Shown: one piece after another, positions 5,456 to 61,200 of the stretch
Layout of the letters: every line of letters begins with the position of its first letter
Position numbering within the stretch: the first letter of the stretch is position 1
IMG/VR virus record: IMGVR_UViG_2886098363_000001
Coordinates: 12,318-76,317 of that record
Source: a virus
Taxonomy: Duplodnaviria > Caudoviricetes
Length of the DNA: 64,000 nt
Reading direction: 5' to 3' (one strand)
Position numbers and translations under genes: made by a program
Notes under the pieces: generated by a model
What the model saw: the letters and a program-made list of their open reading frames with translations, nothing else
Told to the model about the DNA's origin: nothing
The model's database searches: none

Positions 5456-5695
5456 GAGACCAATCTTACTGGTGACGAACTGAGCAGGATTGGTCTTACC
5501 GGGAACCAAAGAAACCGGCGCCCCCGAAGGGGCTCCTGCCCAGCCCGTCATAACTGAAATTGCGGGTACTACTGGGCTGCACATAAAAAAACACGCGGGC
5601 GCGTGTTGTGCGCTTTAGTTCATCGGGAGACCAATCCCGGCAATGGATTTTGCCGTTGCTTTTATAGTATCTAGAAACATTGGCATGGTTGTCAA
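5456..5695 (-). ncRNA. P4 CI / P1 c4-like antisense immunity RNA locus (seqA-seqB-seqC arrangement) with promoter
   Basis: GATTGGTCTC occurs twice (5627-5636 and 5456-5465) flanking its complement AGACCAATC (5488-5496). Promoter TTGACA-18-GATACT at 5666-5695. Ash-family-like shadow peptide. Confidence 0.6.
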
Positions 5696-15861: not shown

Positions 15862-16053
15862 CTAGAGCTCCTGGGCAAGTCGCTGAGCACGCCGTTCGTG
15901 ATACTCCTCGATGGCACGGCGGGTGGCGGCCTTGGTCTTGGCCATCCGCTTTTGCTCGGCGGATGGGGCGGCGTCTACGTCATATTTGCGGCGGGTGGGT
16001 GGCACCATCGCGCCGCGAAAGCCCATCAGCTGGGCTTCGGTCAGTGGTTTCAT
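15862..16053 (-). CDS. Small phage hypothetical protein
   Basis: 63 aa with the AGGACCCAGACCATG start context. Confidence 0.7.
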   Translation of the reverse strand: MKPLTEAQLMGFRGAMVPPTRRKYDVDAAPSAEQKRMAKTKAATRRAIEEYHERRAQRLAQEL

Positions 16054-16076
16054 GGTCTGGGTCCTGTGGTGGTTGA

Positions 16077-16553
16077 TTAGTCGCTGGTCACGCTGATGGT
16101 CAGCTGTTTGCCGCGCCCCATAAAGTCAGCCAGGGCGGCGACGCGATCCTGCTGTTGGGTGACGCGGTGGCGCTGGCTGGTATCCAGCACATCCAGATTG
16201 ACGTTGACGCTGACCTCGACCAACTTGCGGGTCTCGCGTTCCAGCGTCTTGGTGTACTGCTTGGCGGCAATGGCTATCTGTTCGGACGGGGAAGCCAGCT
16301 CGTAACCGTGCCCACGCTTGATGTCGAGATAGATCTTGCGCTCGGTCAGCAGCAGCTCCCGCAACTCGTTGACGCTACGCAGCACCCGCCACTCATACTC
16401 GTCGCGGGCAGCATCGTATTCGGGGATGCTGTGGTATTTTTCCGGGAAGGGGCGTTCCAACCCCAGCATGCGGCGCAAGTCTGCGTGACTGATGAAATCG
16501 CCGTAGTGGAGCCCGAGAGCATCCCAGGCTGTCAGTTGTTCTTCCTGAGTCAT
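16077..16553 (-). CDS. Hypothetical protein coupled to the RAMP/Cas7-like gene
   Basis: 158 aa. Its ATG overlaps the upstream TGA by 4 bp. Confidence 0.8.
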   Translation of the reverse strand: MTQEEQLTAWDALGLHYGDFISHADLRRMLGLERPFPEKYHSIPEYDAARDEYEWRVLRSVNELRELLLTERKIYLDIKRGHGYELASPSEQIAIAAKQYTKTLERETRKLVEVSVNVNLDVLDTSQRHRVTQQQDRVAALADFMGRGKQLTISVTSD

Positions 16554-17137
16554 CCGGCCACCTCCACGTTGAAGCGGCCGTAAGTGCCGCCGCAGGCTGG
16601 GCGCCAGTCGCCCACGCCCACATAGCGACCGGCGTTGCCGAGCACGGTCAGCAGTTCGCTGCGATCCAGCCTGGTGTCGTCAAATTCGATGTGAAAGACC
16701 AGTTGCCAGCCAGCAGGGAAGCGCGGGCGGTGGCGCATCACTCGTGCGGTCCCCACCTTGACGCTTTTGGCCAGCGAGAAGCCCGGCGTGTCTACCAGTT
16801 GCTGCGGGTCTTGCGGGCCGTCGTAGCGCAGTGTGATCTCATCTTCCAGCACCAGCAGGCTGCGCTTGAATTCGGTACCCAACTTGTTGAGCTTGGCCGC
16901 CTCGGTCAGGCAGGCTTTCAGGTTGCTGCCCGGCAGGTGGATGCCACTGGCCCTGCTGAAGTAGATCGCCCCCAGTAGTTCGGAGCGGGCGATATCCTCG
17001 TGGTCGGTGTCGGATTTCTTGCGCTTGGAGGTCAATGCCTTGTGCGCCTTGGTCATCGGATCCAGCGGGTCGCTAAAGCGGTCGCTGTGCATCAGTAACG
17101 GGGTGGTGCCCGTCAGTGTCAGTTTCAGTGTTGCCAT
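16550..17137 (-). CDS. RAMP/Cas7-like protein (putative Vipr-type RNA-guided effector)
   Basis: 195 aa. N-terminal LKLTLTGTTPLLMH strand, internal HLPGSNLKACL motif (compare RAMP IPGSSLKG), and Gly-rich C-terminal loop GRYVGVGDWRPACGGTYGRF. RBS GAGGA. Confidence 0.8.
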   Translation of the reverse strand: MATLKLTLTGTTPLLMHSDRFSDPLDPMTKAHKALTSKRKKSDTDHEDIARSELLGAIYFSRASGIHLPGSNLKACLTEAAKLNKLGTEFKRSLLVLEDEITLRYDGPQDPQQLVDTPGFSLAKSVKVGTARVMRHRPRFPAGWQLVFHIEFDDTRLDRSELLTVLGNAGRYVGVGDWRPACGGTYGRFNVEVAG

Positions 17138-17171
17138 TGTGTAGTCCTCGTTGATGTGCCCTTCCGGGCCC

Positions 17172-17226
17172 TTGCCTTGCCCAGCCAAGCCGGGCCCTGC
17201 CACGCCGCGCCCAGCCGGGCCGAGCC
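17172..17226 (-). ncRNA. GGC-NN pentamer array B (11 units), putative guide RNA
   Basis: Minus strand reads (GGC-NN)x11 with NN = TC,CC,TG,GC,GT,AG,CC,TT,TG,AA,AA. Preceded by TGC, followed by GGG. Confidence 0.8.
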
Positions 17227-17294
17227 GCAGGGCCAAACACACTCAGGGAATGCGCTTGGCGCTGGGCGGTTTTTAACGAGGACCGCCACCTCCC

Positions 17295-17349
17295 ACGCCT
17301 TGCCACGCCATGCCACGCCATGCCCGGCCCTGCCTTGCCTCGCCAGGCC
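17295..17349 (-). ncRNA. GGC-NN pentamer array A (11 units), putative guide RNA
   Basis: Minus strand reads (GGC-NN)x11 with NN = CT,GA,AA,AG,CG,AT,GT,AT,GT,AA,GT. Preceded by TGC, followed by GGG. Confidence 0.8.
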
Positions 17350-17763
17350 GCAGCCTGGAACCCCCTGTGACAAGAGGCTCCAGGCTGGCCACTGTCACCA
17401 GTGGCCTGCCGGTTACGTTATCCGGCGCTGTCTGGTCAGCCGTTCGCGGTGTCGCGCTCTTGCCGCTAATAACAGGTATCCACCCCAGAGTTGCGGACTG
17501 CTCTACCCATGCCGCTTGGTTTATTGACCCTGGCCAGATGCAAAGCTGGCTCCCTACAAGGGGACTCGGGGCGCCATCATTACTGGCGCATGGATTGGCC
17601 GCTTTTAACGGCTGTCGGTCACATCGTTCGCACTCCATGTTGTGTTGAGGTCGCAATAGTCGAGTGATAAATCGTTCACGTTCACACGCCGCTTTCCGAA
17701 TTTACGGGTTATCGGCGCATCCCTACCGGCATCGGGATTCGTGGTTGTGAGCCGGTTCCTGGT

Positions 17764-17775
17764 TGTTAAAGAGCG
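17764..17775 (-). promoter_or_regulatory. boxA antitermination element
   Basis: CGCTCTTTAACA on the minus strand matches the lambdoid boxA consensus. Confidence 0.75.
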
Positions 17776-17874
17776 AGCTCAGCCGAATTTGGCGTGAGCG
17801 AAGCCAAAGCATCCTTGCGGTGCTTGTGAAAGAGGCTTTGGCTACGGCGCTATCAGGGAAGCGCCAGACCCGGG

Positions 17875-18186
17875 TCAGATGGCGTTGCGGTGGAACTCAG
17901 CGCGCCAGTGGAGGAGGGCGCGGCATTTCATGGCGGTCATGGTGCGCACCTTGGCAGACTGGGCGGTGCGGGCTGCGACGAGCTGGTGCCGCTCGGTGGC
18001 CATCATGGCAACCGCCAAGCGTTGCTTGATGGTTCGGCGGCGGGCGGCGTTGCCGTTCAGGCGGTCGGCGATGGCGGCAACGATCTGGTCGGCGCGTTTT
18101 GCGGCTCTGGAAATAGTGACTTTCATCATGTTATCCTTGCGTCTGTTGGCGAGTTGGTCCTCGCTAATTCCCAGTTGATTCGTCAT
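17875..18186 (-). CDS. Basic protein, possible N-like antiterminator
   Basis: First substantial ORF after PL. GNAARRRTIKQRLA resembles the arginine-rich motif of P22 N. An alternative start lies near 18129. Confidence 0.5.
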   Translation of the reverse strand: MTNQLGISEDQLANRRKDNMMKVTISRAAKRADQIVAAIADRLNGNAARRRTIKQRLAVAMMATERHQLVAARTAQSAKVRTMTAMKCRALLHWRAEFHRNAI

Positions 18187-18553
18187 GCTGGGTCCTGATT
18201 GCTGGGGTTGGTCCCTCGGCTTTCACTGACCGGGTGGTACCCGGTCCTTCGAAGCCCGCCTTGTGCGGGCTTTGTCGTTCTTACGCGCTGGTCAGGCGCT
18301 TCACTGCTGCCCTGGTTGGGGCTGGGTCCTGTTGCTGGGTGGTACTCAATTCTTTGCTGGCTTTTTACTCCGCCAGATCCGGAGGTTTGCCGGTTACGTC
18401 TCCGGCCCGGGCTCTCACCGTTCGTGTGGCATTACCCAAGACCTTCACCACGATTGGCCGCCTTCCACGCTGCCCCTTGTTGCTCCCGGCCTTGGGTATT
18501 CCATCTCAGCCCTTTCCAATTTGAACCGGTTGTTGCTGTTTTGGAATGAGCTG

Positions 18554-18601
18554 ATTATTGCCAAATAGAAATGAAAGGTCAATGACGTTCCAAAAAGAAA
18601 T
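18554..18601 (-). promoter_or_regulatory. PL promoter with two overlapping putative CI operators
   Basis: TTGACC(18577-82)-17-AATAAT(18554-59). Operator-like ATTGCCAAATAGAAAT (18557-72) and CGTTCCAAAAAGAAAT (18586-601). Confidence 0.7.
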
Positions 18602-18622
18602 TCATAATTTTTTCAGAGCAAC

Positions 18623-18646
18623 AAAAAGCCCGCCAAGTGGCGGGCT
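18623..18646 (-). terminator. cI terminator
   Basis: AGCCCGCCA-CT-TGGCGGGCT followed by TTTTT. Confidence 0.75.
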
Positions 18647-18669
18647 ATCAATGTGCAGTAGAAGGCAGT

Positions 18670-19281
18670 TCAAGAGGGGAGGCGGATCTCGATAACTTTG
18701 CCTATGGGGAGTAGTTGTTTATCGGTGAGAGAACCTGCACGAGGGTCATCCACGCCATAACGCCAATCTGGTAGGCCCTGGATCGCACGCAGGAACATGA
18801 ACTTGTCGTCCACCTTGGCCAGCATGATCTTGTTGTGTTCTGGCTTGTTATCACTGAGATCAACCAAGCACAAGGCTCCATTGGTAATGCCTGCATCAGC
18901 CAGTTGGTCATTGTCAGCTACCACGGCTATCAGGTGGCCGTCCCTCTCTGTAGCCAGCTTGCGGCCTGTGTCTGCGTGGGGCCAGGCATCGATAGTGGGG
19001 TCTTCCAGTAGCCCAGGCATAGTAAAAACAGGCACCATGCCGGGACCCGCTTCGATGTCACGAATAAGGCTGTCTGCGGAGCGCCCTAGATATAGCCAGA
19101 CAGGGTCAACCTTCAACTGCTTGGCAATGGACATGAGGCTACTTGCTCTAACCTCTCGGCCAGGTTCAGAGAGTATTCGGCTGATCACCGGTGGGGATAT
19201 CCCTGTTTTGCGGCTCAGTTCAGCGGCGCTCACATGTAACTCTTTCATCCTTGCCTGCAATCGTTCCGCAAAGTTTTTCAT
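18670..19281 (-). CDS. cI: CI-like repressor (HTH plus degenerate S24 domain)
   Basis: FAERLQARMKELHVSAAELSRKTGISPPVISRIL HTH, divergent from cro. Confidence 0.88.
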   Translation of the reverse strand: MKNFAERLQARMKELHVSAAELSRKTGISPPVISRILSEPGREVRASSLMSIAKQLKVDPVWLYLGRSADSLIRDIEAGPGMVPVFTMPGLLEDPTIDAWPHADTGRKLATERDGHLIAVVADNDQLADAGITNGALCLVDLSDNKPEHNKIMLAKVDDKFMFLRAIQGLPDWRYGVDDPRAGSLTDKQLLPIGKVIEIRLPS

Positions 19282-20446: not shown

Positions 20447-20803
20447 ATGTCCAATATTCGTCTTGTTTCATTTTCTGACCAATCCAAGCAGAAGCAAAAA
20501 GTGATAACCAGCAGCAGGCGGAACTATGAGTCCCAGGTCATGGCTTACGGCTCCTACAACCTGATCGAGTTTGTTATCAACAGCATATGCTGCGTCGAGT
20601 GCGTGAACGAGGAGGATCAGGCGCTTATCAGCGAGATGTGCGACTGCCTTGAGCACGCGGCGGACATGCTTAAGGCGCATTTGGGCATTCTTGCTGGGCA
20701 CAAGGTGCCAGCCGAAAAGCGCGAAAAGCTGACCAGCTTTATCAAACGCTGGGAAGAGTGCGCCATCAAGAATGGCGACGCATCTCCAACCACCAAAGCC
20801 TAA
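20447..20803 (+). CDS. Hypothetical protein
   Basis: 118 aa, AT-richer, directly after the antirepressor. Confidence 0.6.
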   Translation: MSNIRLVSFSDQSKQKQKVITSSRRNYESQVMAYGSYNLIEFVINSICCVECVNEEDQALISEMCDCLEHAADMLKAHLGILAGHKVPAEKREKLTSFIKRWEECAIKNGDASPTTKA

Positions 20804-20823
20804 ACCACCAGAGGACCAACCCC

Positions 20824-21213
20824 ATGGGAAGAGTAACGCTCCCCGATCATGAAAATATGAGCACCCGCTCCCCGCTGCGGGTGCGCGGCACCCCAGCTCA
20901 GCGCCAGGTATGGCAGGAAGTAGGCGCCGAGTGTGGCATGACTGAAACCGCATTTGCCCGCACCTCGCTGCTGATCCTGCTCCAGGCAATATCTCAGCAT
21001 GAGCCCGGCATCTTGGCGAGGGCCGTCAAACGGGCCAATCGGAGCCTGCTCGAGCAGGGATTTCCGCCCGTGACCGTCGAGGAGATCCTGGATGGCTCCG
21101 GTCTGCCCGAGCGCGGCCTGCTCCAGTTCAGCCAAGAAGACGAGGCCGCCTACAACGAGGAGCGCCCGCTGCGCCCCCTGCAAAAACTCATCAACTTTGT
21201 CCTCGGGAGGTAA
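20824..21213 (+). CDS. Putative DNA-binding regulator in the cII position
   Basis: 129 aa, ribbon-helix-helix-like LRVRGTPAQRQVWQEVGAECGMTETAFAR. Confidence 0.6.
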   Translation: MGRVTLPDHENMSTRSPLRVRGTPAQRQVWQEVGAECGMTETAFARTSLLILLQAISQHEPGILARAVKRANRSLLEQGFPPVTVEEILDGSGLPERGLLQFSQEDEAAYNEERPLRPLQKLINFVLGR

Positions 21214-49115: not shown

Positions 49116-49222
49116 TTGCCTTTCACCTACCCCAGCGTTAGCATCTCTCCATCGTCGATCAGTCTGCATGCTGATCGCCCCATCTCAAAAGCCCCGAACG
49201 GTTCGCCGCTCGGGGCTTTTCT
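49116..49222 (+). promoter_or_regulatory. Late promoter 4 with hairpin and terminator
   Basis: TTGCCT-17(...CAGCGT)-TAGCAT, CATCGT, a CGATCAG hairpin, and an AAAAGCCCCGA...TCGGGGCTTTT terminator. Confidence 0.7.
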
Positions 49223-49245
49223 TTTGCTCGAAATCCGAGGACACC

Positions 49246-52200
49246 ATGGACAAACCTGGACTGCGTGACGCCCTGCCACAACCGCGACAATCTGACACTC
49301 GTAATGACCCCTTCTGGAGCTCGCTCGATAGCAGCCTGTCTGCCGCAGCGGCTGCAACACCCCAACCATCCGAGCCTGTAGCCAAACGTGATCTTGATGT
49401 CGGCCTGGGCGATGTCGCCCGCGGGGTGGGCGCTGGCGCACTTGATCTGGTGGGCGGCATTGGTGAGCTGGCACGGCAGGCAAGCAACTTCGGCAAAGAG
49501 AATGCCGGGAAGCAGGGGGGCGACTACCTGGAACAGGCTCGTGCCAATATGGCCAACAAACTGAGCCCGGTTCTGGATGTGGTCGCAGGTGCAGGCGATC
49601 TGGCCGCGTCTGGGGCGGAATCACTGAATGATGGGATGAGTGCTGACGCCAAGGAGGCACTGGGACGCCGACTGGTCGATGAAACGCCAGAAGGCCGGTT
49701 GACCCTGGGGGATGGCGCAGGGGATATCGATGTCTGGGCGATGAAAATGGCGCAGGGCGTTGGCTCTTTGCTACCGACACTCGCCGCTGGCGGGGTGACT
49801 GGGGTGGCCGCCAAAGCCTCTATCGGCCGCGCTGTCACTGCATCCATGGTCAAGCGTGGCGCGACCCAGGAGGTAGCCGAAGCGGTCGCCGCCAAGGCAG
49901 TATCCAAAATTGCCACCGGCGCCGCTGTGACCACTGGGGCGACAGGATCGGTGGGCAGTGCCGGGGTGAACACTCGAGACACCGTGCTGGGCATGAGCTT
50001 TGACGAGCTGGCGGCCAGCGATACCTTCCGCCAAGCGTTCACTCGCATCGACCAGGATCAGCAGACCGCCTATCTCTCTGATGAGGAAAAGCTGGGGCTG
50101 GCCCGGGAGGAAACGGCCAACTTGGCCAGCCGCGCCACCATGAGTGATGCCAAGGTGTGGGGAGCTGCCGCCATGGGCTCCATGATGGGCGACGCCATGC
50201 TGTTCAAGATGCTGGCTGGCAAGGCGGCCACCGGTGGAGTGCTGAAAGGTGCTGCCAAGGGGGCGGCAGGTGAGGGTATCAGCGAAACCCTGGAGGAGGG
50301 GGTGCAGCAATACGCCGTCAACGAATCCCTCAACGAGGTGGCCGCCGCTGATATCGACCCGATGAAGGGGGTCATGTCGAGCGCGATCGAGGGCGGCTTG
50401 ATAGGGATGGGGACAGGTGGTGCGGTAGGTGCTGTCGGTGGGGCGCGAGGCGGTAAGCATGCCAGCCAGGAAGATGGCGTTGGGACCGATCCGGTTGCAG
50501 AGCCTTCCGCGCCGGTGACGGAGGGCGCTGCTGGTCCGGCAGTGGATCCGAACTTTGCTTCTGTTCCACTGGAAGAAGGCGAGCAGGCGCCATCCGCCTC
50601 GCAGGCCGAGGGGGAGCTGAATCCGCTCGGCCCCAGCGCAAGCCAGTTTGACGAGCTGCGTGATGTGCCGGCCTATCTGCGTCAAGACGATACCGCCGAT
50701 CGCTACAAGGGGATGGCGGCTGATAGCGAGGTGCAGCGCGCCTTGGCGGGTGAGTTCGGCCAGACCGTGCAGGAGCTGGTTGCCTCCCAGATGAAGGCTG
50801 GCGATCAGGGCAAGAGCCTTTATGAGCGAGCTCAGGCTGGTGAGCTTGGGCTTGACCCGTTCGCGGGTAACAAGAGCGCCCAGCAGGTAGCCATGGAGAA
50901 CCAGCGCCTAGCCCTGCCGCTCAAGGATGTGATCTTTGCAGGTGACGCCAATGCCAAGCCCAAGGGAGAGGCGTTGGCTGCACCAGGGGATCACGATGAT
51001 CATCAGGCCGGTCCCGGCCCGCAGTTTCGTGGCACAGAGCGCACCCGGTGGCAGAGCGGGCAGGAAGGCGACCTGCTTCCGCCAGAGCGTGATCCGCGGT
51101 ATTACGCTGCCGAGGCGCTGCCCGGAGCCACTATCGAGGGTGAAGGGCGCGAAGTCGGCACCGAGTTGCCACACCGTAATGTGGTGTACGGCACAGATGG
51201 CCGCCCGGCACAGCAGCAAGCTGCCAATCTGGCACAGCGCGAGCGTGAGTTAGCCAACCAGCCGCCCCAGATCGGCCAATCAGACACCATCTTTGCCGGT
51301 GGTGCGTCGGGCAGCGACCCGCGCAACAGCGCCTATACCCCGCCCAAGCTATCCCGCGATCAGGTGGATGGCTCACTCGATACCCAATCAACCCGCGACC
51401 CGCGCAGCGAGGTAGCCCGTTCGATTGAGGGGGCAGGCAAGGACACCGATTCAGTATTCGGCCCGCTCCAGACACTCCGAATCACCCGCAAAGGCAAGCC
51501 GTTCGCAACCGAGAAAGAGGCGGCCATGGCCAGCCGCAAGGGCCAGGAGATGCCGGTGCCGCTCAATGGAGGTGGCTTTGGGGTAGCGGCTATCGGTGAG
51601 GTGCAACAGGCCCAAGCGCAGCAGGGCGGAGTCAAGCAACCGTCAAGCAATTCGGCCCAGCAGGATCGCCAAGACGGAAAGACTGAGATCGCGCAAAATG
51701 GCATGGTGATCGTTCATGGTTCCGGCAATCCAGGCATGAGCGAGCAGGATATTCAGATTGTCCGCGCAAGTGGTCAGAAGCAGGGCAAAAAGGGCCGTGT
51801 CTATGGTGGCTTCTATGGCACCAGCGAGCAGGACGCGCACCAAGCGCAAGCCTACGCCGATATGATGGGCGGCACGCCCACCCTGTACGATGTCAAGATT
51901 AAGCCTGGCACTAAGGTGTTGCACAAGCAGGGGGATATTACCCGCCTTTCTGAAAGCTACATCAACGAGTTGGTGAGTCAGGGATATGGTGTGGTCACCG
52001 GCACCGACCCGCGCGGCCAGACAGAGCATGTAGTTATCGACAAAAGCGCCGTAGCAAGCATGGCCCCGCGCGGCACTCAATCTACCACGTCCCAAGTAGA
52101 CGAAACTAATGTCGCTGACATGCGTCAACCATCTGATCTGCCAGCCAATCGCGTAAGCGCTGAAACAGTTCCGGCACCGTCTGCCACAGCGGGCGAGGCC

Positions 52201-55200
52201 AGCCAATTAGTACCAGCTATCGATACCGGATACCGCGAGGTGATCCCCGGCAACCAACCCCAAGCAGAGGTGAGCAATGAGCCAGTTACCCCGATACCTG
52301 CAATCAGCAGTGAGCGATCAGGTGATCAGCCTGGCGCAGGCGATCCGGTTGCAACAAGTGTTGGACCAACCCCTGCCGAACTCGCGGAACGAGCTGGACC
52401 CGGAGATCCGGCAGATGGCACTTCTCTTGCACCTGTACCTGTTACCCAACCAGGAGAGGAAAATTCACTGACAGCCCCGGCACCTGCCGGGGTTGCTGTA
52501 TCTGAAGAGGCGCAAGCTGAACAGGCTCGCACGACTGCCGGGCCAGCGGCGGCGCCGACACCCTGGTCGGAGATGATTGATAACCCTGATGGCACCATCA
52601 CCCTGAAAGGCGAAGTGCCGATCATCAAGCAGTGGGCTAAGGATAACGGCGTGAAGGCGATCCCGGGTAAGGGTGGCCTGGTAGTAGCCAAGTCGTTCAC
52701 TGCCAAGGTGCGAGGCCTTACTGCTCCGGCCGCCAATGAGCCTTCGGCACTGGTCGAGGCTGCTCGAGGTGGGGTAGTTCCGGAGCCAACCGAGGTAGAT
52801 CTTATTGATCGCGACTTGCTGAAGGAGCATGCCGGACGCTGGAAGTACCGATCTGCTGTTGGGGCTGGCTGGTTTACCTCCAACACCAAAGAGGGCGCTA
52901 TTGACAGGGCGCGGGAGGCCTACCGGAGGGCTTTCGAGAAGGGGGACCCCGTGCCGACTCGCGAGGAGCGCTGGGAACAGTCTGAGCGCGAGTTTGCTGG
53001 GCGCATGGACAACCGCTTTGGCGGGATGACCATAAATGAGTTGGAAAAACGCCACCAGAACCTCGGCGGTACCATTGCGGATTTGCAGTTGGCTGGCCGG
53101 CACGAGATGAATGGCAATGGCGGGCGTCGCACCGGTGCCGCAGTAGCCAATGAGGGGGCTCGTCAGGCAGGCCAAGAGAAGATGGATCTCGAGCGTTATA
53201 TCCAGTTGCGCCGTGATCGAGAAGAGATGGCAGGCAGTGCGCCGGCTCGGATGATAGAGGCGGCTCGCTCCGAGGTTGCGCCGGAACCCACCGAGGCGCA
53301 GAAGGAGGCGGGGAACTACAAGAAGGGCCACCTCACGCTGCAGGGGCTGGATATCGCCCTCGAAAACCCCAAGGGATCCACCCGCTCAGGCACTGACCCG
53401 GATGGCAAGGCGTGGCAGTCAACCATGGCCCATGACTACGGGTACATCAAGCGCACCCAGGGGGCGGACGGCGATCACGTCGATGTGTTCATCGGTGACA
53501 AGCCAGATAGCGAGACGGTCTATGTGGTTGACCAGGTTGACCCCAAAACCGGCAAGTTTGACGAACACAAGGTGATGATGGGCTTTTCCGATGAGCAGGC
53601 CGCCCGGGAAGGCTACCTTGGCAACTACGAGGCGGGCTGGAAAGGACTGGGTGCCATCAAGGCGATGCCGGTGGAATCGTTCAAGCGCTGGGTGAAGGAG
53701 GGGGATACCACTAAGGCAGTCAGTGACTTGCCCGCCAGTGAACCAACCATCAAGCAATGGGTTGACTCCGCCCCAGACGACCTGCTGGGTGGTATGAGCA
53801 GGCTGTTCAAGGGTGACATGAGCTATGGGGAGTTCCGCGACTTCGCCGAGCGGACCATCATCAGCGGTGAGGGCATCAAGGCCATGTTCGGCGGCTGGAC
53901 CGTGCCCAGGCTGAAGGAGTACCTGACCGCCAACAATGCCTATGTGTTCAGTGGCACCAAGAAGGCTGAGCTGGTCGAGCGTGCCACCCGCATCATGCAG
54001 GGCGAGGTGCGCTGGCCGTCTGCCGGTGGAGCCGGCGTGCTGACCACCACCAACAACCCCTTCGCCAAGAGCAATGCCAGCCCGGCCGATGCGCTGCGCG
54101 CCGAGGTGCAGGGCATCACCGAGGCCCGCTATGGCGAGTTCGTTGCTCGCCGCAAGGAGCTGAACGCCGCACACGAGGCTCGCAAGCAGGCCATCGCCAA
54201 GGCTATCGAGAACCCGCAGACCCTGGACGACTATCGCACCCTGGCCCGCATGAAGGGGCGCGAGGGCATGACCGCCGAGCAGGTGGGCGAGTATGAGCGC
54301 CTGCTGACCGAGGCTCAGCTTGATAAGCAGGACGCCGACAAGGCCGCCGAGCAGGCCGCCAAGCTGACCGCCACCCCCAGCGGGGACATCATCAAGACCA
54401 AGCACACCAAGCACGGCTACGACCTGTTTGTGGTGCAGATGGCCAACCGCGTGGAGAAGGACGAATACACCCGGATCAACGCTAAGGCGAAAGAAACGGG
54501 CGGCTGGTACTCCTCCTTCAAGGGATCCGGTGCCGTGCCCGGCTTCCAGTTCAAAGAGGAGGCCCAGGCTACCGACTTCCGGGCATGGTTGACCGGTCAG
54601 GGGCAGGCAGAGAGCAAGCCCAGCGTGACCGCCGAGGCGCCGACTGTGAACATGGAGGAGCCCGCCAGCAGCCCAGACGATAACGTGGCCAAGCAGATCG
54701 CCGGCCTGCGCCAACGCGCCGAGACGATCCGCACCAAGGCCAACGCTGCCCTGGCAGTGGACCGCAAGGCCAACACCCTGCGCCGTGCTGGCATGGCAGC
54801 CCGCGCCACTGCCGCTGCCGAGGAAGAGCTGAAAACCGCCGATCTGCTGGACGCCATTGCTGACGGCGTGACCACGGGCAAGGCCAACATCCTGCGCAAC
54901 CTGACCACCAAGGCCCAGCTTGCCACCCTGCGCAGCCGACTGGCCCGCGCCATGTATGATCTGCCGAACGCCGAGTACGAGCGCCTGAAGGGTGAGGGGC
55001 TGATCCGCATGGGTAGCCAGGGTCGCCACGAGTGGACCGATAAGGCTGGCCCGCTGGTGCGCGTCGAGGGCGCCAAAATGCCAGGTCTGGACTACTGGAC
55101 TCGCCAACTGGACGATCTCGCCAGCGAAATGCAGGCCAGCAGCAACCGCAGCCACAAGGCGGCCGGGGTCAAACTGAAGAATCTGGCCAAGGCGGCTGAA

Positions 55201-58200
55201 GCGAACCAGTTGCGGCAGGTGGCCGTGACGGATCGCGACCTGATCGACAAGCTGACCGCGTTCGTTCGTGGCAGCCAGGAGGGCACCCAGGCGTTCCGCG
55301 TAGCCGAGCAACTGACGGATGCTGACCGCCTCAACAAGATGGGGATCTTCTCCCGCGCCAACCTGAGAGCGGCACTGGTGGAGCTGCAAGCCATCGAGGC
55401 AGGGCTGGGCAAGCGGGCCGAGGTGAGCCCGCTGCGCACCAAGGAGCAGGCGCTCAAGCTGAAGCTGCTGGGCAACCGCAATGCCTTCATCGACTTCTTC
55501 CCCACCACTGAAGACGACGCCGCCGATCTGGCCGGTCGCCTCGGGATTGAGCCTGGCATGACCGTGCTCGAGCCTTCTGCCGGTCACGGGATGCTGGCCG
55601 ATGCCGCCCGCGATGCCGGGGCCAAGGTGGATGCCGTCGAGATTGCCGGCGACCTGCGCGACATTCTGACCGAGAAGGGGCACACCCTGATCGGCAACGA
55701 CTTCATGGCGCTGACCCCGACCGCCAGCTATGACGCGGTGATCATGAACCCGCCATTCTCCAACGGCATGGACATGGACCATGTGCGCCATGCTTATGAC
55801 TTCCTCAAGCCGGGCGGGCGACTGGCGGCCATCGTGTCGGCCGGCGCAGGCCAGCAATCCACCCGCAAGGGGCAGGAGTTTGCGGCGTGGCTGGATGCCC
55901 TGGGCGCCGAGGTGGAGCTGATGCGCGAGGGAGCATTCAAGGACTCGCTGAACCCGACCAGCGTCAGAACCAAGATCATCGTGCTGGAGAAGCCGGTCGG
56001 AGAAACCGCTCCGTCGCCGTCTCCCGAGGGCAAGCGCGTGACCGTGGCCACGCCGAAGGGGAATGCGGTCGAGGTGCAATACCGCGTCGTGGAAGCGGCG
56101 GATCTGGTGACGTCCCACGACTTCGAGGGGAACATCAATCACAACTACCCGCAGCAACTCCAGCCCCGGGATCGCTCCAAGCAGACCTACCGGGTGCAGG
56201 TGGGCCAACTGGCCGCCGCGCCGGACGGAGCGCGACTGGCGGCCAGCCCGGAGACAGATCGCGGCGCCCCCATTGTCAGTGGGCTTGTCGTGGAAAGCGG
56301 AAACGGTCGCTCTATCGGGCTGAGGCAGGCTTACCAGCGCGGTGACGCCGACGCTTACCGCCGCTACATCGAGGCCAATGCGGCCGACTTCGGGATCGAC
56401 CCGGCCGTGATCGGCGCCATGAAGCAGCCCGTACTGGTGCGCGAGCGGATCACCACCATGACCGACGACCAACTGCGTGACTTCGTGGTGGACTCCAACA
56501 CCGACGCCAAGATGGCGAACAGTGCCGCCGAGGATGCCGGCGCCGACGCGGGCAAGCTGACCGACGACATGCTGGATCTGCTCAACATCCCCGAGGGGGG
56601 CGACGTACTGGCGAGCCAGAACAACCGATTCCTCCAGGCGTTCCTGTCTGCCATCGGCGAGAACCAGAGCAACAGCTATGTGAGCCGGGACGGGCAGTGG
56701 AATGATGCCTACCGCAAGCGGGTGACGGCGGCCATCTTCGCCTACGGCTACGACAACCAGCGGCTGCTGGATGCGGCCACCGGCGAAGTGGACGCGGACG
56801 GCCGTAACATCACTACCGCCCTGATCAACAACGCCGTGGGCATGGCCAAGTTGCGCCAGCACTCGCCGGAGCGGGCCAAGGTTATCTCCAACTACCTCGC
56901 CGAGGCAGTGGAGAGCATCGCCCGCGCCAAGCGCAGCGGGCAGTCCCTGCAAGAAATGGCCGCTCAGTCTGATATGCTGGGAGGCGACACCAGCCCAGAG
57001 GGCAGCCTGCTGGCCCAGGCCATCGCGGCCAGCGCCCGCAGTGCCAAGGCGATCACCGGCATGGTTGGCGACATCCTGACTATGCTCAACAAGACCACTT
57101 CCGCCGACATGTTCGGCGCGGCGGTGGACCCTGCAACCCCGGAGACAGCGATCAATGAAACCCTCAAGGCCATCAGCGCCTACAACCAGCAAAAAGCCAG
57201 CCAACCCAAGCCCGGCGGCGATCTTTTTGGCCTCGCCGGAGCACGGAATAACCACGGCGCAGCGCCAAGCGTTCCGCGATCTGGTGACGCAAGCGCAGCA
57301 AAAGGCGCAGGAGGAGTAACCGAGGGGCGCCTCGAGCTGGACGGGGTAAGTATCCGTATTCCGGCCATCGACGAGGAGCAGCAACGCCTCTACAACCAAG
57401 CCACCCACCGGGGCCAGGGCGTGAACTTTGCCAGCGGCATCAGCACCGGTGTGGGGCGGATCCTCAATGACCTGAAGGATGCCGGCCTACTGGACACGGC
57501 AGAGCAGAGGGCGGCCGCCGAGGCTGAGGTGCAAGCCTGGGCCAATGAGGAGGCCATCAACGCCCGCAAGCTGATGCGCGACGGCATCAAAAACCCGAGC
57601 TGGGCGATCACCGGCCGTTCTGGTCGCAAGGCCCAGAGCAGCGCCGCCCAGGACGCCGAGAACCGCCGCCAAGCCGCCCACCACAAAGACCAGTCAGACC
57701 GCATCACGGCCCTGCGCGGAGAGCTGAAGAAGCTGCGCCCGAAGGAGGTGATCGGGAAAGAGTCGTTCAACTACGCATGGGGCAAGGCCAAAGGCATGAT
57801 CGCCGACTACGCCAGCGCCCAGAGCAACGGGCAGCCCAATCTGCTGGCCAGTCTGCGCAAGAGCATGAATGCCGAGCTGGCCCGCTACCTGCAATCCATG
57901 GGCAAGATCGACGCACCCAACTTCATCAAGACCCTGAAGGAGCAGGATCAGCGCCTGAAGGCCGCCGGCCATGACGGTTTGGTGGCCATCGTGGGTGCGC
58001 GCTCCAACCCGGGCAAGATCATCTCCAACGCCATCGATGGTCGGATCCGCTTCTCCAAGCAAGCCATGTCACAAGGGATGCGACCTGCTAAACACCTGAC
58101 TCGCAAGGAGGCTGAGCTGGTAACCAAGGGGTGGTTCAAGCAGTACCGCGGCGCTTCCGGCATAGATGTGCAGATCCACGCAACCCAGGCTGAACTGGAG

Positions 58201-61200
58201 GAATCCCTCGGGCTGGATGCCAAGGAGGGATTGATCCGCCGCGCCGCGTTTGACGACGATGCCGGCACCCTGCACGTTGCTGCGGACACCATTTCCGACC
58301 CCAAGCGGATGCGCGAGATCCTGCGCCATGAGGTGCTGGCCCACTATGGCCTGGCCAACGTCCTGGGTGACGGGGAATATACCAAGCTGATGAGCCGCCT
58401 CATCGGGTCCCAGGAGGACCCCAGCATGAAGCCGGTGTGGGACTGGGTAAACACCCATTACGCCGACGAGGACATCGGCACCAAAGCCGAGGAAGTGGTG
58501 GCTCATTTGGCGGAATTGGAGCAGGGGGCCTGGGGCCGTGGCTGGGATCGGGTCGTGGCCTGGGTCACCCGGGCGCTGCGTGCGGTCGGCTTTGTACCTG
58601 ATGGCATTACCGCCGCGGAGACGCGTTCCCTGATCGAGGGGCTGGGCAAGAAGTTGCAGCGTAGCGGCCCAGACGACAGCGGGCCGGATGGCGGGAAGAA
58701 GTTCAGCCAGGAAGCCGAGCGGCCAGCCCAGAAAGGCGGTATCAAGATGAGCCAGGCCAGTACCGCAGCTGATGCGGCCATGGAGAAGCTCAACCTGGGC
58801 CCCAAGCCCGACATCATCGACAAGACCAAGGCCAGCCTGAACAAGCTCCGTCAAGTTGACCGAGGCGTGGTCAGCTCATGGATCGATCGCGTCATCAAGA
58901 AAGCCAACACCGAGGTGCTCGACGCGCTGGCCCCCATCAAATACGCCGAGGAGGCTGCCGGCATTACTGATGCCGCAGACTCCGGTTATGTGGCGGCACG
59001 GATGGCGACGGGGGCCGCCTCCACCATGCAGGCGACCATGCTCTATGGTCTGCCGGAGTGGAATGACGGGGTGATCCAGCGCAAGGCGGGTACCGGCGAG
59101 AAAGACGCGCTGCTGGGCATCTTTGCCGACCTGGGAGCTGATCTGCACAACTGGCTTGGCTGGATGGCTGGTCACCGGGCGGAACTGCTGATGGCGCAGG
59201 GCAGAGAGAACCTGCTCGATGCCAATGACATTGCGGCGCTCAAGGGGCAAGGCAAGGGCAAGGAGGCCAAATTCCTTGATGCCAAAGCCCGCTGGAACCG
59301 CCTCAATGCCGCAACCCTGGACCTGGCACAAGAAGCTGGGCTCTTCACCAAAGAGGCGCGGGCCGAGTTTGAAAGCGAATGGTACATCCCGTTCTTCCGT
59401 GAATCAGATGACGGCGACGTGATCGCCCCCTTCAAGACGAAGGGCATTGCCAACCAGAACGCCGGCATCAAGAAGCTCAAGGGCGGGGAGGCCAACACCA
59501 ACGACCTGCTCGAGAACATCTTCACCTCCACCTCCAAGCTGATCGACGCGTCCATGAAGAACATGGCGGCCCAGAAGACGGTTTGGAACCTGGCGGATAC
59601 CGGCATCATCGAGGTCATTCCGAAGCCAAACAAGATGGATTACCAGGCCCTTGCCAATGGCAAAGACAGGATCATGGTCAAGCTGGAGGGGGAGGACTAC
59701 ATGATCCGGGTTGAGGATCCGGACCTCTATCGCGCTATGACCTTCTTCGACCGCAAGCCGTTCAGCGCCATGGTCAATGTGGCGGCCAAGGCCAAGCGCC
59801 TGCTTACTGCTGGGGTCACTGCATCTCCCGAATTCATGCTGCGCAACTTCCTGCGCGACTCACTCTCCAGCTGGGCGATCAGCAAAGACGGCTTCAGGCC
59901 GGTGATCGACTCCATCAAGGGGGTGAAAAAGACCCTGGCGATGGACGGCAGTACCATTGATGTGATGTTCAGCGGAGCCTCCTTCCTGGGCGGCTACGTG
60001 AATGGCAATGACCCAGAGGCGATGGCCGATACCGTGCGTAAGTCGCTGCGACGCAAGGGGATGACGCCCGAGCAAATCGCCCGCTACGAAAAGAGCATTA
60101 TCCGCAACGCCGCTCAGGCAAAGGGCGTGGTTGCCAATGTGTGGGAGAAGTACAACCGCTATGGCGAGGCTTTCGAGAATGCCAACCGCGAGGCGGTCTA
60201 TGCCGCAGCCATCAAGGCTGGCAAGAGCCACGCCCAGGCGGCGTTCGAGTCGAAGGACCTGATGGATTTCTCCATGCTGGGTGCCTCACGCACCATGCAG
60301 GTCATGACCCAACTGCTGCCGTTCTTCAATGCCCGGGTCCAGGGTCTCGGCAAGCTGAGCCGTGAGCTGCGCGACAACCCGCGCGAGATCGCCAAGCGTG
60401 CCGGCATGATCACGGCTGCGAGCCTGGCTCTGCTGGCCGCCAACTGGGACGATGAGCGATACGAAGAGCTGCCGGATTGGGACAAGGATGCCAACTGGCA
60501 CTTCTTTGTCGGCGATCAGCACTTCCGGATCCCCAAGCCGTTCGAGATTGGCGTGTTGTTCGGCACCATCCCCGAGCGCATGGTCCGAGCCCTGGGTGAC
60601 AAGGACACCGGGGCCCAGTTCGGTAAGGCGGTGGCCAGGGCGGTCGGTGAAACGTTCGCGCTCAACCCCACGCCGCAGATCGTCAAGCCGTTGGTGGAAT
60701 CCTACTTCAACTACGATGCCTTCCGTGGCATCCCCATCGAGAACGCGCAGGACCTCGCAGTGCAGGCGGAGGCTCGCTACAACGAGCAGACCAGTCTGAT
60801 GATGCGTGAGCTTGGCGAAACCCTGGGTATGTCACCCAAAAAGCTGGAGCACCTGCTGATCGGCTACACGGGCACCATCGGCAGTTACGTGATGGCGGCG
60901 GCCGATGGCCTGATCCGGGCCGGCACGCCCGGGGAGTCTGCAAGCTGGCGCGCCGATGAGATCCCGCTGGTGAAGGCCGTGTACCGAGGCAGCGGCCCTG
61001 CCAAGTCCACTCAGCACATGGAGGAGTTCTACCGGATGCTGAACGAGGTGAACCAGCTCAAGCGCACCGTTGATCAGTACCGCAGCGAAGGGCTGACCGA
61101 CAAGGCAAACGAGCTACTGGAAGAGCAGGGCGGGATCCTGAAGTCGCGCCGAAGCCTGAGTCGAACCCAGCAGCAAGTGCGTGTGGTACGCAACAGGATT

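What the first reader, a model, noticed from the sequence alone, without database searches (positions are those of the whole stretch)
17150..17430. Hairpin scaffold around the arrays suggests processing into two guide RNAs
Seen on the minus strand: array A is preceded by three stacked hairpins. These are GCCGG-ATAACGTAA-CCGGC (17408-26), GCCACTG-GTGA-CAGTGGC (17388-405) and a 16-bp stem with loop GTCAC (17351-87). GTGACA in the second is complementary to TGTCAC in the third, so a kissing loop is possible. Array B is preceded by GGCGGT...ACCGCC and an 11-bp stem CCAAGCGCATT-CCCTG-AGTGTGTTTGG (17233-59). It is followed by GCCC-GGAA-GGGC (a GNRA tetraloop) just before the RBS. Inference: each unit is a 5' hairpin handle, an 11-mer array and a 3' hairpin, cut from the early leftward transcript.
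Basis: partly seen in the sequence, partly recalled or inferred. Interest (0 to 1): 0.7.

Follow-up and report, generated by a model that had tools for sequence, protein, structure and literature searches.

The report
Phage VIPR guide-RNA genes with hairpins

Summary
The region folds better than all 200 shuffles (z = -4.0). Two stems carry compensatory changes in relatives.

The arrays are 11 + 11 phase-locked GGC-NN pentamers on the minus strand. They lie just upstream of a 195-aa gene whose product matches the solved SUSP1 Vipr protein (PDB 36pp, E = 1.5e-47) and keeps its GG-binding residues. A vap1-like gene follows. This is a type II VIPR locus (bioRxiv 10.64898/2026.04.26.720920 and .720927).

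- The published unit is a repeat tract plus a 3' tail.
- GGCGGT...ACCGCC is stem 2 of an H-type pseudoknot that caps guide A. It is not a 5' handle of guide B.
- Hairpin 1 belongs to an unrelated 297-nt structured insert.
- The kissing loop is not conserved.
- Processing could not be tested.

New here:
- Hairpins bracket the arrays in most of 80 related loci.
- Guide A matches 17 of its first 18 informative bases, in wobble phase, at the start of an Arg-rich early gene of rival Aeromonas-type prophages.
- Rival guides match this phage in return.
- No target was found for guide B.

This scan has found VIPR loci on other DNA before. Verdict: real, a new member of a known kind.

The parts
17388..17406 (-). 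Leader hairpin 2: a 7-8 bp stem with a GNRA tetraloop (GUGA). This is the start of the VIPR leader that is conserved in kin loci.
   Evidence: The stem is invariant in 5 relatives and the loop is GUGA or GCAA.
17351..17387 (-). Leader hairpin 3: a 16-bp stem that ends 1 nt before the first GGC unit of array A.
   Evidence: Five pairs have compensatory changes, and the G-U pairs fit only the minus-strand RNA.
17295..17349 (-). vrRNA A guide tract: 11 GGC-NN units, with NN = CT GA AA AG CG AT GT AT GT AA GT.
   Evidence: The same protein carries quite different NN sets in L101-L110.
17265..17294 (-). 3' tail of vrRNA A: an H-type pseudoknot. S1 is GAGG (17292-17289) with CCUC (17281-17278). S2 is GGCGGU (17287-17282) with ACCGCC (17270-17265). 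The linker GUUAAAA is A-rich.
   Evidence: The three tails of the Felixounavirus ESCO50 have the same topology with different stem sequences; 8 of 300 shuffles give a pseudoknot this good. A terminal pseudoknot was seen by cryo-EM in SUSP1.
17233..17259 (-). Inter-array hairpin: an 11-12 bp stem that ends 6 nt before array B.
   Evidence: Three pairs have compensatory changes and 98% of cells are paired.
17172..17226 (-). vrRNA B guide tract: 11 GGC-NN units, with NN = TC CC TG GC GT AG CC TT TG AA AA.
   Evidence: In a wastewater RNA-run contig, 12 of 13 differences fall on NN positions and the thirteenth is C to U at the Y position.
17158..17171 (-). 3' tail of vrRNA B: GG followed by the GCCC-GGAA-GGGC hairpin. 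This is a simple hairpin tail like those of LESphi2-type loci. The vipr ribosome-binding site follows it.
16550..17137 (-). vipr: a 195-aa RAMP (Cas7-like) protein that binds one GGY-NN unit per protomer.
   Evidence: PDB 36pp SUSP1 Vipr: E = 3.6e-66 with the profile and 1.5e-47 with the single sequence. AF2 pLDDT 95.4. The best Foldseek matches are Csm3/Cas7 chains. phrog_4652.
16077..16553 (-). vap1-like accessory gene (158 aa).
   Evidence: phrog_5926. 30% identity, E = 1e-18, to the gene that follows vipr in Felixounavirus ESCO50; 27% identity, E = 3e-12, to the one in LESphi2.
17407..17703 (-). A separate structured RNA insert that is not part of VIPR.
   Evidence: It is absent from kin loci and is skipped in one contig.
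18554..18582 (-). PL-like sigma-70 promoter (TTGACC-17-AATAAT), downstream of the cI terminator. It probably drives the early leftward operon that holds the vrRNAs.
   Evidence: a consensus match only. cI-like repressor at 18670-19281.
17875..18186 (-). Arg-rich early-left gene, a candidate N-type antiterminator by inference. It is this phage's own allele of the gene that guide A appears to target in rivals. Its 3' end (17870-17904) is matched 21/24 by a rival guide.

Best explanation
Window 17150-17430 is the guide-RNA part of a type II VIPR locus. The locus has two vrRNA genes, then vipr, then a vap1-like gene. It sits in the early leftward operon of a lambdoid temperate phage of Aeromonas type.

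Shown here by sequence:
- There are two tracts of 11 GGC-NN pentamers.
- Tract A ends in an H-type pseudoknot and tract B in a GNRA-capped hairpin.
- Conserved hairpins stand directly before each tract.
- The next gene encodes a Vipr homologue that keeps the residues which hold the two G's.

Taken from the published work on SUSP1 and P. fulva VIPR:
- One Vipr protomer binds each pentamer.
- It hides the GGY and presents the NN.
[quoted passage not shown] Inferred:
- Both RNAs are released from the PL-type transcript, each carrying 22 informative bases.
- The flanking hairpins act as punctuation, setting RNA ends or limiting the filament.
- Guide A silences the start of an Arg-rich, N-like early gene of rival prophages.
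For: Protein:
- Vipr homology to PDB 36pp. H17, K33, R138 (R137 here), D177, W178 and R179 are conserved.
- RAMP fold.
- vap1-like neighbour gene.

Arrays:
- They are unique in the window and far beyond chance.
- Same-strand arrays lie beside vipr homologues in all but one of the phages checked: LESphi2, Felixounavirus ESCO50, Medea1 and Gordonia phage Trine; none was found in the phiHSIC locus.
- 66 of 80 viral-contig loci have arrays: 164 on the same strand as vipr and 3 on the opposite strand, mostly of 10-12 units.
- An identical Vipr protein occurs with 25 distinct NN sets.
- Population variants are confined to NN positions.

Structure:
- Covariation in hairpin 3 and the inter-array hairpin.
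- Pseudoknot of SUSP1 type.
- Hairpins bracket arrays across the family.

Targeting:
- No self-target; the best own-genome scores are 15-16 of 22.
- Guide A matches 17/18 (18/22 overall) at the RBS, start codon and first 7 codons of an 81-aa gene. Its skip bases fall on wobble positions.
- 0 of 1000 shuffled guides reach 17/18.
- The site is identical in 10 further rival prophages.
- All 3 carriers of guide A have the other allele, and the window's own site scores 11/22.

Papers read.
Against: - No RNA ends, expression or Vipr binding were measured for this locus. RNA-run contigs cannot show them.
- Guide B has no target in anything searched. Exact-pattern scans of the viral and metagenome collections gave only chance-level hits.
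- The guide A match is 18/22 overall, only just at the papers' 80% line, and it was found in a small hand-gathered set of 362 kb.
- Three pocket residues for the pyrimidine differ from SUSP1: S71, N72 and V173 here against E71, M72 and C173.
- Calling the target gene N-like rests only on an Arg-rich motif. It has no PHROG or Pfam hit.
Confidence: 0.9

Rival explanations
1. The arrays are a cis-regulatory leader. A multimeric protein, possibly the product of the downstream gene, binds the 11 G-rich triplets spaced 2 nt apart, much as TRAP binds the trp leader. This would control translation or termination of the downstream genes, and no trans-acting guides would be made.
For: The geometry of 11 triplets with a 5-nt period equals that of TRAP sites. 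Array B ends 20 nt before the ribosome-binding site. The arrays lie in the 5' untranslated region of vipr.
Against: - The protein is a RAMP homologous to Vipr, not to TRAP.
- In other phages the arrays lie downstream of the gene pair or far from any ribosome-binding site.
- NN is hypervariable with an identical protein, which a pure binding site would not need.
- NN sets match rival phage genes in wobble phase.
- Published assays show trans guide function.

Autoregulation in addition to guide function is not excluded.
Confidence: 0.05
2. The arrays act at the DNA level, for example as protein-binding iterons, G-quadruplex-forming DNA or a recombination hot spot. The hairpins would then be incidental inverted repeats.
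For: GG runs spaced 3 nt apart could form two-layer quadruplexes. Recombination genes (RecE-like and RecT) lie in the same operon. One kin locus has a chimeric array made by recombination between A and B.
Against: - The strand bias is strict: 164 arrays on the gene strand against 3 on the other.
- The stems keep G-U pairs that would be C-A mismatches on the other strand, and they covary.
- The Y position keeps a pyrimidine.
- The protein partner is a known RNA binder.
Confidence: 0.02
3. This is a decayed or inactive VIPR remnant. The sequences are recognisable but the RNAs are no longer made or used.
For: No expression data exist for this locus. VIPR-null prophages that carry leftover arrays do exist in the same group (L113, L120).
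Against: - All 22 units are perfect GGC.
- vipr and vap are intact.
- The identical protein is listed in 434 blocks of the assembly collection.
- The key residues are kept.
- Population variation spares GGY.
- Guide A has a phase-correct candidate target that its carriers themselves lack.
Confidence: 0.03

Closest known systems
Type II VIPR system of Escherichia phage SUSP1 and other Felixounaviruses (Vipr, Vap1, vrRNAs; bioRxiv 10.64898/2026.04.26.720920 and 10.64898/2026.04.26.720927; PDB 36pp)
   Same: - The Vipr protein is about 45% identical, with H17, K33, R138, D177, W178 and R179 kept.
- A vap1-like gene follows vipr.
- The vrRNAs are 11-12 GGY-NN units.
- Guide A ends in an H-type pseudoknot of the same topology: a 4-bp S1, a 5-7 bp S2 and a UUAAAA linker.
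- There is no self-targeting.
   Different: - The host is a temperate lambdoid phage of Aeromonas type, not a virulent myovirus.
- Both guides lie upstream of vipr inside the early-left operon.
- Y is always C here.
- Guide B has a simple hairpin tail.
- Three residues of the pyrimidine pocket differ.
- The candidate target is a rival prophage's early gene rather than a satellite.
P. fulva-clade type II VIPR of Pseudomonas prophages (same preprint). LESphi2 (OQ594955.1) carries a similar locus.
   Same: - A temperate lambdoid context downstream of cI.
- Two or three vrRNAs upstream of vipr.
- Simple hairpin tails that begin GGGC.
- Published targets are lysis-lysogeny regulators of resident prophages and other VIPR loci, which matches the cross-targeting seen here.
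   Different: - About 48% protein identity.
- The inter-array spacer in that clade has three hairpins (tail, long stem, GNRA stem). Here it is a pseudoknot plus one long stem.
- Pseudoknot and hairpin tails are mixed within one locus here.
Class 1 CRISPR-Cas backbone (Cas7/Csm3 bound to crRNA)
   Same: RAMP fold (Foldseek E about 1e-5 to Csm3 chains). One protomer binds per repeat of the guide. A thumb interrupts the pairing periodically.
   Different: There is no CRISPR repeat-spacer array, no other cas genes and no adaptation module. The guide period is 5 nt with only 2 paired bases, against 6 nt with 5 paired bases.
TRAP and the trp leader of Bacillus
   Same: Eleven G-rich triplets separated by 2-nt spacers in a 5' leader.
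   Different: There is no TRAP-like protein. The triplet is GGY, not (G/U)AG. The spacers carry information. The resemblance is one of geometry only.

Membership tests
VIPR system (type II) | A Vipr protein: a minimal RAMP homologous to SUSP1 Vipr | tested here: met
   The profile hits PDB 36pp_D at E = 3.6e-66. The single sequence hits at E = 1.5e-47 over residues 3-193. AF2 pLDDT is 95.4. The best structural matches are Csm3/Cas7 chains.
VIPR system (type II) | Residues that hold the GGY motif and the skipped base (H17, K33, R138, D177, W178, R179; also E71, M72 and C173 for the pyrimidine pocket) | tested here: met
   The alignment shows H17, K33, R137 (equivalent to R138), D177, W178 and R179 identical. 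E71, M72 and C173 are S71, N72 and V173 here, so the pocket lining is not identical.
VIPR system (type II) | vrRNA genes: 9-16 tandem GGY-NN units with GGY conserved and NN hypervariable, on the vipr strand in flanking intergenic DNA | tested here: met
   Two tracts of 11 exact GGCNN units. 25 distinct NN sets occur with an identical protein. 12 of 13 population variants fall on NN.
VIPR system (type II) | A conserved, structured 3' tail after the repeat tract (a pseudoknot in the SUSP1 clade) | tested here: met
   Guide A has an H-type pseudoknot with the same topology as three ESCO50 tails but different stem sequences. Guide B has a GGAA-capped hairpin like the GGGC-hairpin tails of 92 of 133 related arrays.
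VIPR system (type II) | An accessory vap gene next to vipr (vap1 in type II) | tested here: met
   The 158-aa gene at 16077-16553 is phrog_5926. It is 30% identical (E = 1e-18) to the gene after vipr in a Felixounavirus.
VIPR system (type II) | vrRNAs accumulate as roughly 100-nt RNAs and co-purify with Vipr | not testable with these tools
   Only assembled contigs of metatranscriptome runs were available. They cannot show ends, strand or level.
VIPR system (type II) | Guides match competing mobile elements by the 1-nt skip rule and do not match their own genome | tested here: inconclusive
   No self-match; the best own-genome scores are 15-16 of 22. Guide A matches 17/18 (18/22 overall) in wobble phase at a rival prophage gene, and 0 of 1000 shuffled guides reach that. 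Guide B has no target.
VIPR system (type II) | RNA-guided binding of double-stranded DNA with transcriptional silencing | not testable with these tools
   This needs a reporter or binding assay. It has been shown only for the SUSP1 system in the preprints.
CRISPR-Cas (class 1) | A CRISPR array of identical repeats separated by unique spacers, plus cas genes beyond a single RAMP | tested here: not met
   The repeat and tandem-repeat scans show only the pentamer tracts. The neighbouring genes are vap1-like, RecE-like and RecT.
TRAP-regulated leader | A TRAP-family ring protein and (G/U)AG triplets | tested here: not met
   The triplets are GGC. The partner protein has a RAMP fold.

The most novel reading that the evidence does not exclude
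The hairpins that bracket every vrRNA tract may be required punctuation that sets RNA ends or filament limits. The published descriptions that I read name only a 3' tail.

Aeromonas-type lambdoid prophages may also form a reciprocal, allele-specific VIPR network. One prophage type silences the 5' end of the rival's Arg-rich N-like early gene. The rival in turn silences the 3' end of this type's allele and the junction of its guide A with the pseudoknot tail. That would amount to RNA-programmed superinfection exclusion aimed at the antitermination switch.
Probability: 0.35. Interest if true: 0.5.

Novelty: new member of a known kind. Interest (0 to 1): 0.35.

Why it matters
The locus extends VIPR to lambdoid temperate phages of Aeromonas type. 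These are common: the identical Vipr protein is listed in 434 blocks of the assembly collection, and the phage turns up in wastewater runs from many studies.

It offers a compact natural test case:
- The protein is identical across carriers.
- There are two kinds of 3' tail in one locus.
- Dozens of natural guide sets exist.
- There is a candidate pair of prophage types that appear to target each other's early regulator.

The family-wide hairpin bracketing points to a processing or boundary rule for vrRNAs. The preprint text that I read does not address such a rule.

Tried and rejected
1. Rfam, sensitive mode on 16000-19000 and gathering mode on the whole window: nothing in the region. Only C4 and isrK RNAs at 5468-5659.

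2. TRAP-like ring-protein leader. This was my first idea, from the 11 triplets with a 5-nt period. I dropped it once the protein matched Vipr.

3. Exact 1-nt-skip patterns in viral contigs:
   - All 11 units of A and of B: no match.
   - Units 2-10 of A: one hit, L018. It scores 19/22 in a 43% GC contig, the skip bases are not at wobble positions, and about 2 such hits are expected by chance.
   - Units 2-10 of B: none.

4. Units 1-10 of A in metagenome contigs: one hit, L019. It is intergenic, next to ribF and trp genes of an unrelated bacterium, and about 1 hit is expected by chance. I rejected it as a target.

5. Pattern search with 3 mismatches in five related phage or provirus records: no match.

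6. Getting a genome handle for the host genus, to scan its species genomes: not possible. None of the loci lies in a held genome. The single genome-contig scan found only a Cellvibrionaceae relative.

7. RNA-run contigs laid on the region. They cover vipr and the leader, break inside the arrays, and cannot show expression or ends.

8. The 297-nt insert as an HK022 put-type antiterminator. A covariance model of its core found nothing in HK022 22-30 kb, so this stays unresolved.

9. PHROGs and Pfam for the Arg-rich early gene and for ORF 20758-21213: no family.

10. Kissing loop between hairpins 2 and 3: not conserved in relatives.

Full report
**What is there**

Read on the minus strand, the stretch 17430-17137 holds these elements in order:
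- a hairpin GCCGG-ATAACGTAA-CCGGC (17426-17408);
- a 7-8 bp hairpin with a GUGA loop (17406-17388);
- a 16-bp hairpin (17386-17351);
- eleven exact GGCNN pentamers (17349-17295);
- a GGG-led tail (17294-17265);
- an 11-12 bp hairpin (17259-17233);
- eleven more GGCNN pentamers (17226-17172);
- GG plus GCCC-GGAA-GGGC (17171-17158);
- a GAGGA ribosome-binding site and the ATG at 17137.

The inverted-repeat scan and the RNA fold recover the stems. The 291 nt fold at -165.5 kcal/mol against -142.7 +/- 5.7 for shuffles, and none of 200 shuffles does as well. A scan for phase-locked GG pentamers finds only these two arrays in 64 kb, while shuffled windows give 0.04 hits on average.

**Context**

The genome held for this window is a 76-kb virus record. 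The features on the minus strand, in transcription order, are:
- a cI-like repressor (18670-19281);
- its terminator;
- a PL-like promoter (18582-18554);
- a small Arg-rich gene (17875-18186);
- boxA, CGCTCTTTAACA (17775-17764);
- the non-coding region;
- a 195-aa gene (phrog_4652) and a 158-aa gene (phrog_5926);
- a RecE-like exonuclease and RecT.

DNA matches to Aeromonas phages point to the host.

**Identification**

Relatives of the 195-aa gene in viral contigs all carry one to three such arrays upstream. GGC is kept and the two following bases vary freely.

The same holds for distant homologues:
- Pseudomonas phage LESphi2, 48% identity, three arrays;
- the Felixounavirus ESCO50, 45% identity, GGT/GGC units in an AT-rich genome;
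- Medea1;
- Gordonia phage Trine.

No array was found in the locus of Listonella phage phiHSIC.

A profile of the family hits one solved structure, PDB 36pp 'SUSP1 Vipr protein', at E = 3.6e-66. The AlphaFold model (pLDDT 95.4) matches Csm3/Cas7 chains best.

Three 2026 preprints describe VIPR systems:
- They consist of a Vipr RAMP, a Vap protein and vrRNAs made of 9-16 GGY/NN repeats with a conserved 3' tail.
- One protomer binds each repeat.
- The NN bases pair with double-stranded DNA of the form NNx.
- The outcome is transcriptional silencing of competing phages and satellites.

The window's protein keeps H17, K33, R138 (R137 here), D177, W178 and R179. The next gene is 30% identical to the gene after vipr in a Felixounavirus. 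All sequence-level criteria of a type II VIPR locus are met. Expression and DNA binding could not be tested.

**The hairpins, one by one**

The three tails of the Felixounavirus have the same topology and linker with entirely different stem sequences. Only 8 of 300 shuffles give a pseudoknot as good. Cryo-EM of SUSP1 shows a terminal pseudoknot capping the 3' end.

*Tail of array B.* It is a simple GGAA-capped hairpin, like the GGGC-hairpin tails that follow 92 of 133 related arrays. This one locus therefore mixes both tail kinds.

*Hairpin 3 and the inter-array hairpin.* They stand 1 and 6 nt before the two arrays. They have 5 and 3 pairs with compensatory changes among only five relatives, and 96-98% of cells are paired. 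Slid controls give 0-1 such pairs. Their G-U pairs fit only the minus-strand RNA.

*Hairpin 2.* It is invariant apart from a GUGA/GCAA loop swap.

*Hairpin 1.* It is not part of the VIPR leader. It is the 3' end of a 297-nt insert (17407-17703) that the kin loci lack and that one wastewater contig skips.

*Kissing loop.* The complementarity is present only in this sequence and its identical copies. It is lost in four relatives.

*Family-wide pattern.* I examined 80 related loci. In 122 of 138 distinct upstream flanks a helix ends within 8 nt of the first unit. In 114 of 133 tails a helix starts within 3 nt of the last unit. Mean fold z-scores are -2.9 upstream and -3.1 downstream. Hairpin bracketing is therefore a general feature of these arrays. 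Its role in end formation or filament limits is inferred, not shown.

**Variation**

The identical 195-aa protein is listed in 434 blocks of the assembly collection, including complete chromosomes. Ten such loci have the same tails and 25 distinct NN sets. Two of them carry the window's own guides. Two carry a chimera of units 1-4 of A with units 7-11 of B.

In a metatranscriptome contig laid on the window, 12 of 13 differences within array B fall on NN positions. The thirteenth is C to U at the Y position.

**Targets**

Neither guide matches its own 76-kb genome; the best scores are 15-16 of 22. Exact-pattern scans of the viral and metagenome collections gave nothing beyond chance.

I then scanned 362 kb of kin prophage DNA with the 1-nt skip rule.

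*Guide A.*
- It matches 18/22, and 17/18 over its first nine units, at the ribosome-binding site, start codon and first seven codons of an 81-aa Arg-rich gene (MTRRLFS...NGNAARRR...). Its skip bases fall on wobble positions.
- No shuffled guide out of 1000 reaches 17/18, and 8 of 1000 reach 18/22.
- The site is identical in ten further prophages.
- The window's own allele of this gene begins differently (MMKVTIS), and its homologous site scores 11/22.
- All three carriers of guide A have that non-target allele.

*Rival guides against this phage.*
- A guide carried by eight loci with the target allele matches the 3' end of the window's allele (17870-17904) at 21/24, in wobble phase.
- Another kin guide matches 23/24 across the junction of array A and its pseudoknot (17273-17307). 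The third preprint describes this class of vrRNA-targeting vrRNAs.
- A third matches ORF 20758-21213 at 21/24.

*Other kin guides.* They hit P22_Cro-type genes (20/22) and a divergent vipr allele (20/22).

This fits the published picture for Pseudomonas prophages. I rate the guide A target as a candidate at about 0.5, because the overall match sits at the 80% line and the search set was small. Guide B has no target in anything searched.

**Verdict**

The hairpins and arrays are real and selected. They are the vrRNA genes of a VIPR system, which is a known kind (2026 preprints) that this scan has met on other DNA before.

The proposed unit layout, the kissing loop and the membership of hairpin 1 are not supported, and processing remains untested.

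Noticed in passing
window 17407-17703 (-), core 17479-17615: A 297-nt insert lies between boxA and the VIPR leader. Its core is a structured RNA: a hairpin followed by a three-way junction, with 12 of 29 predicted pairs changed on both sides across 5 sequences.

The same element occurs in Aeromonas phages PCAh2 and phiARM81ld, in Klebsiella phage phiKO2 (just before a putative terminator) and in Stx2c-type E. coli prophages. In E. coli it is found in 53 of 5426 genomes, unannotated, downstream of cI on the leftward strand.

It matches no Rfam family. It may be an antitermination or leader RNA, but a covariance model of the core found nothing in HK022 22-30 kb.
   Followed up: partly
window 17764-17775 (-): A consensus boxA (CGCTCTTTAACA) is followed by a hairpin, downstream of the Arg-rich gene. 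In kin loci L005-L008 the same boxA lies about 120 nt before the first vrRNA array. The arrays may therefore be transcribed by an antiterminated polymerase.
   Followed up: partly
window 17273-17307 (-), 17870-17904 (+), 20944-20978 (-): This phage is itself matched by guides of kin VIPR loci. The matches are 23/24 at the junction of array A with its pseudoknot, 21/24 at the 3' end of its Arg-rich early gene, and 21/24 in ORF 20758-21213. The last two are in wobble phase.
   Followed up: yes
L113 10513-10700; L120 10513-10572: Prophages of the same group carry vrRNA arrays but no vipr or vap gene. These are solo vrRNAs, like those reported for vipr-null Felixounaviruses.
   Followed up: partly
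L006 2422-2466; L102 2922-2966: These loci have a single array made of units 1-4 of guide A joined to units 7-11 of guide B. This looks like a deletion by recombination between the two arrays, which creates a new guide.
   Followed up: partly
L015 (Gordonia phage Trine) 3040-3200: The vrRNA array is flanked on both sides by tRNA-like T-arm minihelices (GGGGTTCGACTCCCC). This suggests punctuation by tRNA-processing enzymes. The array lies inside the annotated gp40 reading frame.
   Followed up: no
window 5468-5555 (-) and 5586-5659 (-): Rfam C4 antisense RNA (79.8 bits) and isrK RNA (66.4 bits) lie side by side. This is the P1/N15-type antirepressor immunity module.
   Followed up: no
window 49168-61326 (+): A single open reading frame of 4052 codons lies in the late region of this 76-kb phage.
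   Followed up: no
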